Below are positions 5,783-40,293 of a stretch of DNA of 64,000 nt, in pieces. The stretch is from NCBI RefSeq assembly GCF_009914755.1, contig NC_060936.1. The stretch is one strand, 5' to 3'. How positions within the stretch are numbered: position 1 is the stretch's first letter; every line of letters begins with the position of its first letter. This DNA is from the human T2T-CHM13v2.0 reference genome, Homo sapiens. The position numbers and the translations under genes were made by a program. Under the pieces are notes generated by a model that did not search any database, had not been told where the DNA came from, and was given only the letters and a program-made list of their open reading frames with translations.

Positions 5783-5951
5783 ATGCTCTCTGTAGCGAGT
5801 CATTCTGGAACACTCCTGGTTCTCGCTATGGCCATAAGAAGTGACTTTCATGAGACCTTCAGAAGAATAGCCCGGCTCTTTTACTGGTTCCCCAAATCAC
5901 TGACCTGCTCAAAGAATCGGAAATCCAAGCTGCTCTGGAGCCAAGGTGGGG
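5783..5951 (+). CDS. RASSF3: Candidate distal first coding exon of a long RASSF3 isoform (MLSVASHSGTLLVLAMAIRSDFHETFRRIARLFYWFPKSLTCSKNRKSKLLWSQGG)
   Basis: Repeat-free open frame; in-frame ATGs at 5783 and 5828 (strong Kozak GCTATGG); consensus donor G|GTAAGT at 5952; ends in phase 1, joining in frame to exon 40169. Confidence 0.6.
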
Positions 5952-6854
5952 GTAAGTTACCTCAGGCTAATGCCTTATTTCAAATCCGTTTTTTTTTGTG
6001 TGTGTGTTACATTTTAAAATGGAGCCTCCCTCGCATGGGCAGGGAGGAGTGGGAAAGAAAAGTCTTGAAGCCTTTAAAAGGTATTCCGCTTGGTCATCTG
6101 GAGGGAAAATTGAGAGAAAATAAAATTAAGCATTTTGAGGCTGATGTATTAGAAGCCATGAACATTGTTACAATCCAATTGTATGCTTTTTAGGCATTTT
6201 GATTCCGAAAAGTTGACTAAAGAGAGATGGAGAATGTTTAGTATTTAAAAACAACAAAAACAGCTCTTATTCTCAGGGACTCTTAACTTGTCTTAGTACT
6301 AAAACATCTTAGAATAAACAGAACACAAAAAATAAGTCACAGTGAGTTCCCCTCCTTTCCATAGAAAACTAAAAAGGTCAGTGGGCCTTAAATCTCTTTT
6401 ATTTGGGTCAGTTTATGCATCATATTTTAGGTATTTATTGATGTGAGAATTTAAAGCACCTTATATTTGCTACCATATAAAGCCCTGCCTTTTCTGTCCA
6501 GTCCTGCCTGACTGGAATATGCAAGGGTCAGAGGAGAGGGGGTTAAAGGGAGTAGATGACCCCTCCAAGTCTGGTATCTGAAGTTCCTGCAGGAGCCCAG
6601 CTTTCACCTTCATACTCTGCAGCACTGGTTGTACTACTCACACTACTGTAAGCCAATTCTCTCACTTCATAATGTTTCATCTTGCAACTGAATCAAAATT
6701 CTCATTATGTTTCTTTCACACCCATGTAGCTCAGAATTTTATGTAAGTGCTTAACAATTACTTAAGATGTATTATGTGTTTGATACATTATCAAACATAA
6801 TCTGATGATGTGCTAGATTATCCAGTGCCAGATCCTCCTTTAAAAACAAGTGAC

Positions 6855-7157
6855 GACTGGGCACCGTGGCTCACACCTGTAATCTCAGCACTTTGGGAGG
6901 CCGAGGCAGATGCATTACCTGAGGTGAGGAGTTCGAGACCAGCCTGGCCAACATGGTGAAAACCTGTCTGTACTAAAAATACAAAAAAATTAGCCGGGCA
7001 TGGTGGCTGGTGCCTGTAATCCCAGCTACTCAGGAGACTGAGGCAAGAGAATCACTTGAACCTGGGAGGCGAAGGTTGCAGTGAGCCAAGATCATGCCAC
7101 CGTACTCCAGCCTGGGCAACAAGAGCTAAACTTCGTCTCAAAAAAAAAACAAAAAAC
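6855..7157 (+). mobile_element. AluS
   Basis: Dimeric Alu. Confidence 0.95.
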
Positions 7158-7223
7158 AGAAGTGACTATGATCTATAATCACCAAGGCAGGTATATGATT
7201 AAGACATTTATTTAAAAGCATGC

Positions 7224-7538
7224 AGACCGGGCGCGGCGGCTCATGCCTGTAATCCCAGCACTTTGGGAGGCCGAGGCGGGCAGATCACCTGAGGTCGGGA
7301 GTTCAAGACCAGCCTGACCAACATGGAGAAACCCTGTCTCTACTAAAAATACAAAATTAGCTGGGTGTGGTAGCACATGCCTGTAATCCCAGCTACTCGG
7401 GAGGCAGAAGCAGGAGAATTGCTCGAAAACCCAGGAGGTGGAGGTTGCGGTGAGCCGAGATTGTGCGATTGCACTCCAGCCTAGGCAACAAGAGTGAAAC
7501 TCCGTCTCAAAAAACAAAAACAAAAACAAAAACAAAAC
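7224..7538 (+). mobile_element. AluSp-like
   Basis: Dimeric Alu with CATGGAGAAACC, flanked by AAAA(G/C)CATGCA repeats. Confidence 0.9.
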
Positions 7539-7789
7539 CATGCAATTCATTTAAAAAAAAAAGAAATTTATAAAATATAAGGCCTAGGACATTTCAATCT
7601 TCCATTTTTTCTTTAATTTTTTTTCATTCTCACTGTCAAAATAGGGAGAATTTAACTTAATCGTTTAAGTCTCTGTTTATATGTACCATTCTTCAGATAT
7701 GGATTAACATAATTTGGGAAGTTAGAGCCCCAAAAGAACTTAAGAAAAATCATCTTCACCAATTGCTTCATTTTAAAGATAAGCAAAAA

Positions 7790-8084
7790 GGCCAGGGGCG
7801 GTGGCTCATGCTTGTAATCCCAGCACTTTGGGAGGCCAAGGTGGGTGGATCACTTGAGGTCAGGAGTTTGAGACCAGCCTGGCCAACATGGCGAATCCCT
7901 GTCTCTACTAAAAATACAAAAATTAGCCGGGTGTGGTGGTGGGTGCCTATAATCCCAGCTACTTGGGAGGCTGAGCCAGAAGAATCGCTTGAGCCCAGGA
8001 GGTGGAGGTTGCAGTGAGCTAAGATGGAACCACTGCACCCCAGCCTGGGCGACAGAGCAAGACTCAGCCTCAAAAAATAAAAAT
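7790..8084 (+). mobile_element. AluS
   Basis: Dimeric Alu within MIR-like sequence. Confidence 0.95.
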
Positions 8085-8427
8085 AAGATGAGCAAACTGC
8101 CTCCAGAAGGTTAGATACCTTAACCTCCCAAAACTATTACATAGGCAGAACCAGAGCTTTATCCCAGATTATCTAATTCTTGGTCTGCTGCTCTTTTTAT
8201 CACACCACAGAGCAATGGTGAGTAAGTAACAGAATGTGAACATACGAGCCCTCACTGAATATTTTACTTATAGCCTTCATCAGTAGATAATCTATACCTA
8301 GAAAGTTTGATTATCTGTTTTTCCAAAGTAAAGCTTATTAGTTTTCTCATTAGTTTGGAGATTGATAGCCTGATTCCAACAATCTTTTTACTTATACACA
8401 ATATTATGAAAGAAAGATTTTTGTTGA

Positions 8428-8729
8428 GGCCAAGCTCAGTGGCTCATGCTATGATCCCAGAACTTTGCGAGGCCAAGGCGGGCGGATCGCTTGAGGTCAG
8501 GAGTTCAAGACCAGCCTGGCCACCGCGGTGAAACCCCATCTCTACTAAAAATGCAAAAATTAGCCAGGCATGATGGCAACCACCTGTAATCGCAGCTACT
8601 CAGGAGACTGAGGCAGGAGAATTGCTTGAAACTGGGAGGCAGAGGTTGCAGTGAGCTGAGATCGCACCACTACACTGCATGCAGCCTGGGCGACAGAGTG
8701 AAACTCCATCTCAAAAAAAAAAAAAAAAA
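8428..8729 (+). mobile_element. AluS
   Basis: Dimeric Alu. Confidence 0.9.
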
Positions 8730-38081: not shown

Positions 38082-38378
38082 TGCCTGGGTGCGGTGGCTT
38101 ATATCTGTAGTCCCAGCACCTTGGGAGGCCAAGGGGGCGGATCACTTGAGCCCAGGAGTTCAAGACCAGCCTAGGCAACATGGTGAAACCCCATCTCTAC
38201 AAAAAATACAAAAATTAGGCAAGCATGGTAGTATATGCCTGTAGTCACAGCTACTTCAGAGGCTGAGGTGGGAGGACTGCTTAAACCCAGATGGTTGAGG
38301 CTGCAGCAAGCTGTGATTGCCCACTGCACTCCACCCTGGGCAATAGAGTGAGACCTTGTCTCAAAAGAAAAAAAAAAT
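38082..38378 (+). mobile_element. AluJb-like
   Basis: Dimeric Alu. Confidence 0.92.
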
Positions 38379-38530
38379 TTCTCATACCATTAAATATTAT
38401 TATTCTCCAACATTATTTACTGATCACAATATTCTATCATACAGATAGACCAATAATAAACTTATTATTAAATCAGTTAATATACTTTATTATTAAATCT
38501 GTTAATATAGTCTATCTGTATGATAGAATA

Positions 38531-38788
38531 TTGTGGACATGTGGGTTTCAGGCAGTCCCATCACTCATAGCCCATAGAATGGTCTTTTTATCTCGATGGC
38601 TTACATACGTATCTTCAGAGAACTGAGTTCAGATTCATTCATTGCCATTGCTTCTCTCCTTACTGCCTGTTTTATCTGAAGCTTAACCCTGTGTTATAAT
38701 TTTAGAAACAATGAGATAGTTGGCAGGCTAATGGCTTCATTTTAAGTAGTATCTGATGTGAAGTTTACAACTGAAGCCAATTGGAGTT
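38531..38788 (+). repeat. Composite local duplicate of 40311-40500 plus 43846-43913
   Basis: Manual alignment; about 22 differences in 190 nt for the first part. Confidence 0.9.
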
Positions 38789-38954
38789 CTTTCTTAAGAC
38801 GGCTCCTTAAAAATTTCATTATGTTAGACCTGTCTTCAGTGGGTTACATTACCAGACTCTTGATGAGAGAAATCTATTTGCTGGTGAATAAAATTGTGGC
38901 AGCTCTTATTTATGTGTCTTAATGTGGCTAAGGTAAATGTTTTAAAAATACTTA

Positions 38955-39250
38955 CTTTGGAAACAGTTTGATAGTTCCTCAAAAAGTTAAACTTAGAATT
39001 ACTATATGACCCAGCAATCCTACTCCAAGGTATATATCCAAGAAAATGGAAAACATTATGTACACAGGAAAACTTGTCCATGAATGTTTGGCTATTATTT
39101 ATAACAGCCAAAGAGGGGAAACAGCCTAAATGGCCATCAACAGATAAAAGAATAAACAAAATGTGTTACATTCATATAAAGGAATATTATTCAGCTGTAA
39201 AAAGAAATGAAGAACTGATATATGCTACAACATGTATGAATTTTGAATAT
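38955..39250 (+). mobile_element. L1M 3' fragment
   Basis: TATGACCCAGCAATCCTACTCCAAGGTATATATCCAAGA...GGAATATTATTCAGC. Confidence 0.85.
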
Positions 39251-39260
39251 TTGATAGGTG

Positions 39261-39874
39261 AGGCTGTGCTGGTGTTTTATGCCTGTAATCTCAACACTTT
39301 GGGAGGCCAAGTCAGGAGGATCGCTTGAGCCTAGGAGGTCAAGACTGCAGTAAGCTATGATTGCATCACTGCGTTTGGTGACAGGGTCTCAGTCTGTTGC
39401 CCAGGCTGGAGTGCAGTGGTTGAACAAAGCTCACTGCAGCCTCGACCTTCTGGGCTCAAGCAATCCTCTCAACTCAACCTCCCAAGTAGCTGGGACTACA
39501 GGTGTGTGCCACCACACCTGGCAAATTTTTGTATTTTTTTTGTAGAGATAGGGTCTTGCCATGTTGCCCAGGCTGGAATTTTTTTTTTTTCTAAGTAAGG
39601 CCAGTGTGGTGGCTCATGCCTGTAATCCTAGCACTTTGGGATTACACTTGGGAACCTCCACCTCCCAGGTTCAAGGGATTCTCCTGCCTCAGCCTCCCAA
39701 GTAGCTGGGACTATAGGCACCCACCACCACATCTGGCTGATTTTTGTATTTTTAACAGAGATGGGGTTTCGCCATGTTGCCCAGGCTGGTCTTGAACTCC
39801 TGGGCTCAATAGATCCGCCCGCCCTGCCCTCCCAAAGTGCTGGGATTACAGGCATGAGCCACAGCGCCCGGCCA
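39261..39874. mobile_element. Rearranged Alu cluster (+/-/+/- fragments)
   Basis: Fragments about 39261-39372 (+), 39375-39577 (-), 39599-39640 (+), 39654-39874 (-). Confidence 0.85.
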
Positions 39875-40168
39875 ATGTTGTCTTAATTTAAACCTTGCAA
39901 AAAGAAAAAAAATGTATCGTAGCCTAATCTCCTGTCTTTGTGAAAGATATTCAGTGATAGTGTGATTGAATTTCAGAGGAGGCCAAGATAGTCTAGGTTA
40001 AATGGCTCTGCCTTGTGAACAGATGGGCCCCACACAAACTCATTTTTATTATTCCAGGTTGAATGCTGGCTTTTTGAGCAGGGGAGGGGGTTCAATTTCC
40101 CTTGGCCTGTTGGATGAACAGAGAACGACACAGACCTAACTGGGAACCTAACGTGCTTTCTCTTTCAG

Positions 40169-40293
40169 AGGGTAAATATATATGTCATGCTCACTGCCGA
40201 GACCTGGTACATCTGGATTATCCACAAAATGGGAACGTATCAAGCTGCATGCCGACTTCTGAAGTAAGATATTCAATCAAAAAGAACAGTCAG
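40169..40293 (+). CDS. RASSF3: RASSF3 upstream exon encoding a degenerate second half of a C1 zinc finger ((E)GKYICHAHCRDLVHLDYPQNGNVSSCMPTSEVRYSIKKNSQ)
   Basis: CCTAAC branch points (40135, 40147), pyrimidine tract and AG acceptor (40167-68), donor CAG|GTAGGC (40294), 125 nt open. Peptide aligns with RASSF1A CKFTCHYRCRALVCLDC and RASSF5 CKFTCHPECRSLIQLDC. Confidence 0.75.

What the first reader, a model, noticed from the sequence alone, without database searches (positions are those of the whole stretch)
5783..40293. Hidden upstream exon system of RASSF3: remnant of a RASSF1A/NORE1A-like long isoform
Seen: two ATG-bearing exons (5783-5951, 31856-31922) end in strong GT donors in phase 1. Both join in frame (G+AG = Glu) to a 125-nt exon (40169-40293) that ends in phase 0 and encodes half a C1 domain. 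Established: RASSF1 and RASSF5 each make a C1-containing long isoform from a distal promoter and a short isoform from an internal one; canonical human RASSF3 is described as lacking C1 and lies downstream of TBK1 on the same strand. Inference: RASSF3 had the same two-promoter design, and humans keep open-frame, spliceable remnants that could give N-terminally extended RASSF3 (98 or 64 residues replacing the canonical first exon). These exons may already appear in minor GENCODE transcripts, but I know of no description of them as a decayed C1 isoform.
Basis: partly seen in the sequence, partly recalled or inferred. Interest (0 to 1): 0.85.

Follow-up and report, generated by a model that had tools for sequence, protein, structure and literature searches.

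The report
RASSF3 upstream exons, decayed C1 half
Three upstream coding exons of the human RASSF3 gene are real and old, and one of them is the worn-down second half of a zinc-binding C1 domain that birds and other vertebrates still have whole in RASSF3.

Summary
Exon A (5783-5951), exon B (31856-31922) and exon C (40169-40293) have the stated ATGs, GT donors and phases.

They are not hidden. A 299-aa human RASSF3 protein made of exon A, exon C and exon 2 onward is already in NCBI and UniRef. The same form is annotated in placentals and birds.

Exon C is the orthologue of the second C1-coding exon of the RASSF1/3/5 family:
- Duck RASSF3 matches the Nore1 C1 structure (1rfh, E 0.0037).
- Human matches a RASSF5 orthologue (E 3e-5) and aligns colinearly with a RASSF1A-like protein.

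Non-placental RASSF3 keeps a NORE1A-like first exon and a whole C1. This is seen in an ibis model and in an unnamed 343-aa protein with C1, RA and SARAH domains.

All 23 placental-type rows have lost two of exon C's four zinc-ligand positions. No first-half exon is detectable in the window.

Exons A and B are not decayed C1. They are separate, conserved alternative first exons, a design like RASSF1B.

Six literature searches found no description of this. Expression was not testable here.

The parts
5586..5951 (+). Exon A, an alternative first exon of RASSF3. RefSeq gives starts at 5586 and 5813. In-frame ATGs lie at 5675, 5783 and 5828. The conserved coding part is 5828-5951 (MAIRSDF...). The donor GTAAGT is at 5952 and the exon ends in phase 1.
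   Evidence: and the hub table. Human proteins P0004 and P0005 contain it. tblastn of duck RASSF3 residues 1-37 hits 5828-5938 at 70% identity, E 1e-11. An unnamed protein, P0090, aligns with human from M16 (E 3e-18).
31856..31922 (+). Exon B, a second ATG-bearing alternative first exon of 22 codons plus 1 nt. The donor GTAGGT is at 31923 and the exon ends in phase 1. The human RefSeq table supplied does not list it for RASSF3. It lies inside an antisense lncRNA exon (31536-32241, minus strand).
   Evidence: A bat RASSF3 protein, P0015, starts with the same 22 residues (22 of 22) joined to exon C. The unnamed P0049 has 17 of 22 identical residues and an exon C with all its ligands.
40169..40293 (+). 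Exon C, the orthologue of the second C1-coding exon (the counterpart of RASSF1 exon 2-alpha-beta). It encodes E-GKYICHAHCRDLVHLDY... Of the four zinc-ligand positions it encodes (C, H, C, C), His and one Cys remain. The first Cys is Gly and the last Cys is Tyr.
   Evidence: In eight unnamed genomic read-through ORFs, the exon is more conserved than its flanks: 26-31 of 41 in the exon against 5-7 of 20 downstream.

Best explanation
The three exons are genuine alternative 5' coding exons of RASSF3. All three lie upstream of the canonical first exon, which is outside this window.

Exon C is the second of the two exons that encode the C1 zinc finger in the RASSF1/RASSF3/RASSF5 family. In birds and other non-placental vertebrates, a GC-rich NORE1A-like first exon supplies the first half of the C1. 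It splices in phase 1 to exon C, giving a RASSF3 protein with C1, RA and SARAH domains.

The same exon C is also reached from two other old first exons, A and B, which carry no C1 ligands. That arrangement matches the one described for RASSF1B (exon 1-beta joined to exon 2-alpha-beta).

In placentals the first-half exon is no longer detectable, and exon C has lost two of its four ligand positions. No C1 can form. Exons A, B and C have nevertheless stayed open, spliceable and conserved.

Shown: the exon anatomy, the homology, the ligand loss and the conservation.

Inferred: these exons give N-terminally different RASSF3 proteins (284-299 aa from exon A, about 265 aa from exon B) in which exon A or B plus a non-zinc C1 stump replaces the canonical N-terminus. 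They would be expressed from their own promoters. What the stump does is unknown. My best guess is a linker or contact surface next to the RA domain.
For: Anatomy.

Database proteins:
- Human P0005 (299 aa) is exon A + exon C + exon 2 onward, with RA and SARAH domains.
- The same form is present in 9 further placental clusters (A1) and 5 bird clusters.

Homology of exon C to C1:
- Duck residues 32-59 match Nore1 C1 structure 1rfh residues 32-59 (E 0.0037), and 2fnf at E 0.0062.
- Human residues 59-93 match P0045 residues 153-187 (30 bits, E 3e-5). P0045 is anchored as RASSF5/Nore1 by 2fnf at E 5.5e-40.
- Human aligns in one colinear HSP, from exon C through the RA domain, with the RASSF1A-like P0097.

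Whole C1 in RASSF3 elsewhere:
- Ibis P0035 scores C1_1 at 32.7 bits.
- The unnamed P0041 scores C1_1 at 27.8 bits (cut-off 26.5) and also has RA and SARAH.
- P0041 is 72% identical to duck RASSF3 and 64% to human, against 46% to the RASSF5-like P0054.
- Its C1 matches 2fnf at E 1e-11.
- A tree separates the RASSF5-like clade from P0041, P0058, P0060 and the named RASSF3 proteins with 100% SH-aLRT support.

Ligands: 23 of 23 placental-type rows have Gly and Tyr at the two positions. 60 of 60 other rows carrying the motif have Cys at both. 19 of the 102 rows have no motif.

Conservation of exon C: 26-31 of 41 in the exon against 5-7 of 20 downstream.

RASSF1B design: passages in PMC2586335.
Against: - No expression evidence of any kind could be examined here: no RNA-seq, CAGE, Ribo-seq or proteomics.
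- Many of the mammalian proteins are automatic models that may have been projected from one another. They show conserved open frames, not independent expression.
- The human peptide alone gives no Pfam hit and no PDB C1 hit. A placental-only profile misses 1rfh and 2fnf at E<=10.
- Representative proteins such as P0041, P0049, P0060 and P0090 carry no names, so their species are unknown. Synteny with TBK1 is untested.
- No RASSF1 protein with an intact C-terminus was in the tree. P0065, used as outgroup, has an aberrant C-terminus and a very long branch.
- Exon B is supported by only two other sequences.
- The structure model was uninformative (mean pLDDT 38).
Confidence: 0.8

Rival explanations
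1. The exons are neutral relics or non-coding transcript parts. Upstream transcripts exist but make no stable protein. On this reading, the open frames persist through nucleotide-level constraint (antisense lncRNA exons, regulatory elements) or through short length.
For: Both exon A and exon B lie inside exons of the antisense lncRNA LOC105369803 (hub table). Neither has a CpG island: CpG observed/expected is 0.1-0.4 around both. Open frames closed by phase-1 donors are common, with 12 candidates in 737-40168. No expression data were seen.
Against: The frame, the ATG and the phase are kept from an unnamed distant vertebrate (P0090) through birds to human for exon A. The same holds for exon B in a bat and in P0049. 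Exon A is as conserved between human and duck (70%) as the whole protein (73%). Exon C is more conserved than its flanks.
Confidence: 0.13
2. Exon A or exon B is itself the decayed first half of the C1 domain, so that together with exon C it forms a whole decayed C1.
For: By eye, exon B (..YKLSGK..) and the first-half exon (..CDLCCR..) share a few positions and the same phase-1 end. MAFFT placed part of exon A's RRIARLF under the first-half exon's VRTIF motif.
Against: hhalign of exon A against the first-half exon gives probability 0.07-0.25%, and 0.55-0.79% in an earlier run that wrongly included one row. tblastn with the ibis protein found exon C but not exon A or B. Exon-A-type and exon-B-type exons occur alongside an exon C with all its ligands, and in P0051 alongside the true first-half exon.
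Confidence: 0.04
3. The long isoform is an annotation artefact, for example TBK1 read-through or gene-model projection, with no biological unit behind it.
For: One fragment of exon A + exon C is named 'XPOT protein, partial' in a hyena (P0011), which shows that models in this region are muddled. P0027 joins exon A directly to exon 2, which the human phases do not allow.
Against: Independent annotation pipelines give the same exon joins: NCBI models for human, Cebus and birds, UniRef entries for other mammals, and a bat genome project. The splice sites are canonical. The exon junction point is the same in RASSF5-type and RASSF1-type proteins.
Confidence: 0.03

Closest known systems
RASSF1B (RASSF1 exon 1-beta + exon 2-alpha-beta)
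   Same: An alternative first exon without C1 ligands is joined to the second C1-coding exon. The protein therefore carries only the back half of the C1 in front of RA and SARAH (PMC2586335, passages). Exon A + C and exon B + C in RASSF3 have the same layout.
   Different: In human RASSF1 the full-C1 isoform (RASSF1A) still exists and exon 2-alpha-beta keeps its ligands. In human RASSF3 no first-half exon was found, and exon C has lost 2 of its 4 ligand positions.
NORE1A / RASSF5A and its C1 domain (PDB 1rfh, 2fnf)
   Same: Non-placental RASSF3 long forms (P0035, P0041) share three features with NORE1A: the motif upstream of the C1, the short spacing between the two Cys pairs, and the layout of C1, RA and SARAH. 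Exon C aligns to the last 28 residues of 1rfh.
   Different: The human RASSF3 long form has no Pfam C1 match and lacks 6 of the 8 ligands.
Canonical RASSF3A (238 aa)
   Same: The sequence is identical from exon 2 onward, including RA and SARAH (review passages).
   Different: The canonical first exon lies outside this window and is described as resembling the N-termini of RASSF1C and NORE1B (PMC2586335). Here it is replaced by exon A or B plus exon C.

Membership tests
C1 domain (Pfam PF00130 C1_1) | Match to the C1_1 profile at or above the curated cut-off (26.5 bits) | tested here: not met
   Human exon peptides gave 0 families at E<=10. Human P0005 and duck P0029 gave no C1_1 row at E<=10. 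The feature is met by the ibis P0035 (32.7 bits) and by the unnamed RASSF3 orthologue P0041 (27.8 bits).
C1 domain (Pfam PF00130 C1_1) | Eight zinc ligands in the pattern H, C, C, C, C, H, C, C (pattern recalled, and consistent with alignment A2) | tested here: not met
   Exon C covers four ligand positions. Human and all 23 placental-type rows have Gly and Tyr at two of them (A2). The four ligands of the first half have no counterpart in exon A or B.
C1 domain (Pfam PF00130 C1_1) | Sequence homology to a solved C1 domain | tested here: met
   Duck exon C against 1rfh gives E 0.0037, and against 2fnf E 0.0062. Human against the RASSF5 orthologue P0045 gives E 3e-5 in a single comparison. Against this, human alone and the placental profile do not reach these chains.
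RASSF1/3/5 long (A-type) isoform | Distal first exon encoding the first half of the C1 | tested here: not met
   An HMM built from 20 first-half exon peptides was run against 3351 six-frame ORFs of the window. The best score was 9.8 bits (E 0.16), in an Alu-like stretch at 906-1172. The reversed-sequence control scored 6.9 bits. The only CpG-rich spot upstream of exon C is an Alu.
RASSF1/3/5 long (A-type) isoform | Second C1 exon joined in frame to the common RA/SARAH exons | tested here: met
   P0005 reads exon C and then exon 2 onward, with RA (58.9 bits) and Nore1-SARAH (61.9 bits). It aligns colinearly with the RASSF1A-like P0097.
RASSF1B-type isoform | Alternative first exon without C1 ligands spliced to the second C1 exon | tested here: met
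   Exon A + C is seen in human, 9 further placental clusters and 5 bird clusters. Exon B + C is seen in a bat and in P0049. The definition of RASSF1B is taken from PMC2586335. Expression in human was not tested.

The most novel reading that the evidence does not exclude
Placental RASSF3 long isoforms are working proteins in which the back half of a lost C1 has been kept for a zinc-independent job, for example contact with the RA domain in the way the Nore1 C1 packs against its RA domain.

On this reading the two old first exons give different targeting. Exon A supplies a basic-aromatic N-terminal segment. Exon B supplies an MG-start, lysine-rich peptide that could be lipid-modified. The resemblance to acylation motifs is recalled, not tested.

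RASSF3 would then be a three-promoter gene whose isoforms differ in localisation, overlooked because the field treats RASSF3 as C1-less.
Probability: 0.2. Interest if true: 0.6.

Novelty: new member of a known kind. Interest (0 to 1): 0.45.

Why it matters
Reviews state that only RASSF1A and Nore1 among the C-terminal RASSF proteins have a C1 domain (PMC4695899 and PMC7915224, passages). They describe only RASSF3A, B and C (PMC2586335, passages).

The data here indicate three things:
- The C1-long / short two-promoter design is ancestral to all three paralogues.
- RASSF3 keeps a whole C1 outside placentals.
- Humans keep a conserved, already annotated but undiscussed set of N-terminal variants.

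That gives a dated, natural example of loss of a C1 domain from a tumour-suppressor family. It also points to isoforms that antibody, knock-down and methylation studies aimed at the canonical promoter would miss.

This is a modest advance for a specialist, not a new kind of system.

Tried and rejected
- Pfam on the three human exon peptides gave nothing at E<=10.
- PDB phmmer with exon C alone gave only GDF2 at E 1.1, which I take as chance.
- A placental-only profile against the PDB gave no C1 chain at E<=10.
- tblastn of the ibis protein matched its Pro/Ala/Arg-rich N-terminus to 41.3-42.6 kb. I rejected this as compositional. The filters were off, the region lies downstream of exon C, and it is made of tandem repeats.
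- I considered that exon B is the decayed end of the first-half exon. This was rejected. The in-frame upstream translation shows nothing C1-like, tblastn and the HMM search gave no hit, and an exon-B-type exon coexists with an exon C that has all its ligands.
- I considered that exon A is the decayed first half. This was rejected by hhalign.
- The CpG-rich spot at 14.9-15.3 kb is an Alu, not a lost promoter.
- AlphaFold2 of the human long form on a 16-row alignment gave mean pLDDT 38 and pTM 0.26. It was unusable and no fold search was run.
- Rfam found 0 families in the window.
- The tree outgroup P0065 has a corrupted C-terminus, so the tree is used only for the split between RASSF5-like proteins and the rest.
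Full report
**1. What is in the sequence**

- Exon A has an ATG at 5783 and ends at 5951, in front of GTAAGT. It is 169 nt and ends in phase 1.
- Exon B has an ATG at 31856 (context aagATGg) and ends at 31922, in front of GTAGGT. It is 67 nt and ends in phase 1.
- Exon C follows an AG at 40167-40168, runs 40169-40293 and is followed by GTAGGC. It is 125 nt, enters in phase 1 and leaves in phase 0.
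- Either first exon joins exon C through a GAG codon.
- Exon A has two more in-frame ATGs. The one at 5675 is used in the human isoform X4 model, P0004. The one at 5828 has a purine at -3 and G at +4, and it is the start used in the bird and Cebus models.

The pattern alone is weak evidence. Between 737 and 40168 on the + strand there are 94 donor-like GTs matching 7 of 9 consensus positions or better. Of these, 26 close an ATG-started frame in phase 1, and 12 do so with 20 or more codons.

**2. The exons are annotated and conserved**

A search with the exon C peptide among longer proteins returned 20 proteins from 20 candidates.

- P0005 is a 299-aa protein named 'Ras association domain family member 3 [Homo sapiens]' in NCBI and UniRef. 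It reads exon A + exon C + RASSF3 exon 2 onward. It carries RA (58.9 bits) and Nore1-SARAH (61.9 bits) but no C1.
- The same architecture appears in named models from Theropithecus, Cebus, Microcebus, Rhinolophus, Monodon, Suricata, Felidae, Catagonus and Mustelinae. Alignment A1 of these placental forms has 92% mean column identity.
- It also appears in five bird clusters: duck, ostrich, Agelaius, Patagioenas and Caloenas.
- Against the window, duck residues 1-37 hit 5828-5938 at 70% identity (E 1e-11), and residues 43-68 hit 40174-40251 at 58%. The whole proteins are 73% identical (A3).
- An unnamed 134-aa representative, P0090, aligns with human from Met16 through exon C (E 3e-18).
- A bat (Phyllostomus) RASSF3 protein, P0015, begins with exactly the 22 residues of human exon B and then continues into exon C.
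- The unnamed P0049 has 17 of those 22 residues.

Many of these are automatic models. They show that the frames and junctions are conserved. They do not show independent expression.

**3. Exon C is the back half of a C1 domain**

The human peptide by itself does not show this.

- Pfam finds nothing at E<=10.
- PDB phmmer finds only GDF2 at E 1.1.
- A placental-only profile does not reach the Nore1 C1 chains at E<=10.

The link comes through orthologues and pairwise comparisons.

- Duck RASSF3 residues 32-59 match residues 32-59 of the Nore1 C1 structure 1rfh (E 0.0037), and match 2fnf at E 0.0062.
- Human P0005 residues 59-93 match residues 153-187 of P0045 (30 bits, E 3e-5 for the single comparison). 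P0045 is a RASSF5/Nore1 orthologue, shown by its match to 2fnf at E 5.5e-40.
- Human P0005 also aligns in one colinear stretch with the RASSF1A-like representative P0097, from exon C through the linker into the RA domain (E 2e-28).

**4. RASSF3 has a whole C1 elsewhere**

- An ibis protein, P0035, has a GC-rich N-terminal part that ends in the first half of a C1. This is followed by an exon C almost the same as in named bird RASSF3. Pfam scores C1_1 at 32.7 bits.
- Searching 1.84 billion representatives with P0035 gave 67 proteins at E<=0.001.
- Among them, P0041 (343 aa, unnamed) has C1_1 (27.8 bits, cut-off 26.5), RA and SARAH.
- P0041 is 72% identical to duck RASSF3 and 64% to the human long form, but 46% to the RASSF5-like P0054. 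Its C1 matches 2fnf at E 1e-11.
- In a quick tree of the RA-SARAH part (17 rows), the RASSF5-like rows split from P0041, P0058, P0060, P0056 and the named RASSF3 rows with 100% SH-aLRT support. The outgroup row was poor, and no intact RASSF1 row was included.

**5. What placentals lost**

| Rows | Count | Residues at the two ligand positions |
|---|---|---|
| Placental-type (3 are the human sequence) | 23 of 23 | Gly and Tyr |
| Other rows with the motif (bird and unnamed RASSF3-type, RASSF5-type, RASSF1-type) | 60 of 60 | Cys and Cys |
| Rows without the motif | 19 of 102 | not applicable |

- 22 of the 23 placental-type rows keep the His.
- An HMM of the first-half exon (20 peptides) was run over 3351 six-frame ORFs of the window. 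It scored at best 9.8 bits (E 0.16), in an Alu-like stretch. The reversed window scored 6.9 bits.
- The only CpG-rich spot upstream of exon C is a young Alu.
- So no first-half exon is recognisable between TBK1 and exon C in human.

**6. Exons A and B are not decayed C1**

- Exon-A-type first exons sit in front of an exon C with all its ligands in birds, P0060 and P0090. An exon-B-type exon does so in P0049.
- Model P0051 contains the first-half exon, then an exon-A-type segment, then exon C.
- Profile comparison of exon A with the first-half exon gives probability 0.07-0.25%. An earlier run with one wrong row gave 0.55-0.79%.
- The in-frame sequence upstream of exon B shows nothing C1-like.

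**7. Conservation within placentals**

Eight unnamed genomic ORFs read straight through exon C. Compared ungapped with human:

- The exon matches at 26-31 of 41 residues.
- The 20 residues downstream match at 5-7 of 20 (3 of 7 in one short row).
- The 20 residues upstream match at 7-11 of 20.

This fits constraint on the exon after the ligands were lost. It is not a formal test of selection.

**8. How it most likely works**

- Shown: a shared second C1 exon is reached in phase 1 from several alternative first exons.
- From the literature: this is the design described for RASSF1, where RASSF1A uses exon 1-alpha and RASSF1B uses exon 1-beta, both joined to exon 2-alpha-beta (PMC2586335, passages).
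- From sequence: unnamed RASSF5-type rows with unrelated N-termini converge at the same junction (P0086, P0089, P0091, P0095, P0100).
- Inferred: human RASSF3 makes RASSF1B-like proteins from promoters at exon A and perhaps exon B, with a stump that cannot bind zinc as a C1 does.
- Its function is a guess. The Nore1 C1 is reported to pack against the RA domain (PMC7915224, passage), so a contact or linker role is possible.

**9. What is known in print**

- I saw passages, not whole texts, of PMC2586335, PMC7915224, PMC4695899 and bioRxiv 10.1101/2020.02.05.923433.
- These describe RASSF3A, B and C only. They say that its N-terminus resembles RASSF1C and NORE1B, and that only RASSF1 and RASSF5 have a C1.
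- Six searches found no description of a RASSF3 C1 isoform or remnant in any species. The terms paired RASSF3 with C1 domain, isoform, evolution, alternative promoter, phylogenetic, paralog and zebrafish.
- Subscription papers, including Tommasi et al. 2002, were not searched. No supplements were opened.

**10. Verdict**

It is wrong about 'hidden' and about exons A and B being remnants.
- Annotation already holds exons A and C. The evolutionary reading, and exon B in human, appear not to be described.
- Interest is moderate.

Noticed in passing
window 41300-42900: A GC-rich block (about 65% GC per kb) made of tandem repeats. There is a 22-nt unit x17.4 at 41584-41966, CCCGCCC-type repeats at 42141-42359, and 41-nt and 24-nt CCAAT-containing units at 42567-42830. 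It looks like a retroelement LTR (ERV9/LTR12-like, recalled and not tested). It gave spurious low-complexity tblastn hits.
   Followed up: partly
window 4738-6097 and 31536-32241, minus strand: By the hub table, two of the four exons of the antisense lncRNA LOC105369803 cover exactly the two sense-strand first exons A and B of RASSF3. This suggests paired sense/antisense transcription at both sites.
   Followed up: no
proteins P0086, P0089, P0091, P0095, P0100 (unnamed, RASSF5-type): Five RASSF5-type representatives have unrelated N-termini that all join at the same point, just before the second C1 exon. RASSF5 therefore seems to have RASSF1B-like alternative first exons too. P0091 has a short stretch faintly like the core of exon A.
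   Followed up: no
protein P0011 (Crocuta) and P0027 (Rhinopithecus): A 98-aa hyena fragment consisting of exon A + exon C is named 'XPOT protein, partial', which looks like a naming error from a neighbouring gene. P0027 joins exon A directly to exon 2, which the phases seen in human (1 and 0) would not allow in frame.
   Followed up: no
window 14950-15250: A young Alu with CpG observed/expected about 0.95. It is the only CpG-rich 300-nt stretch between 1 and 41000.
   Followed up: yes
protein P0034 (Columba livia, 162 aa): A pigeon model places an extra 26-residue segment between the exon-A-type and exon-C-type parts. This could be a further cassette exon or a model error.
   Followed up: no
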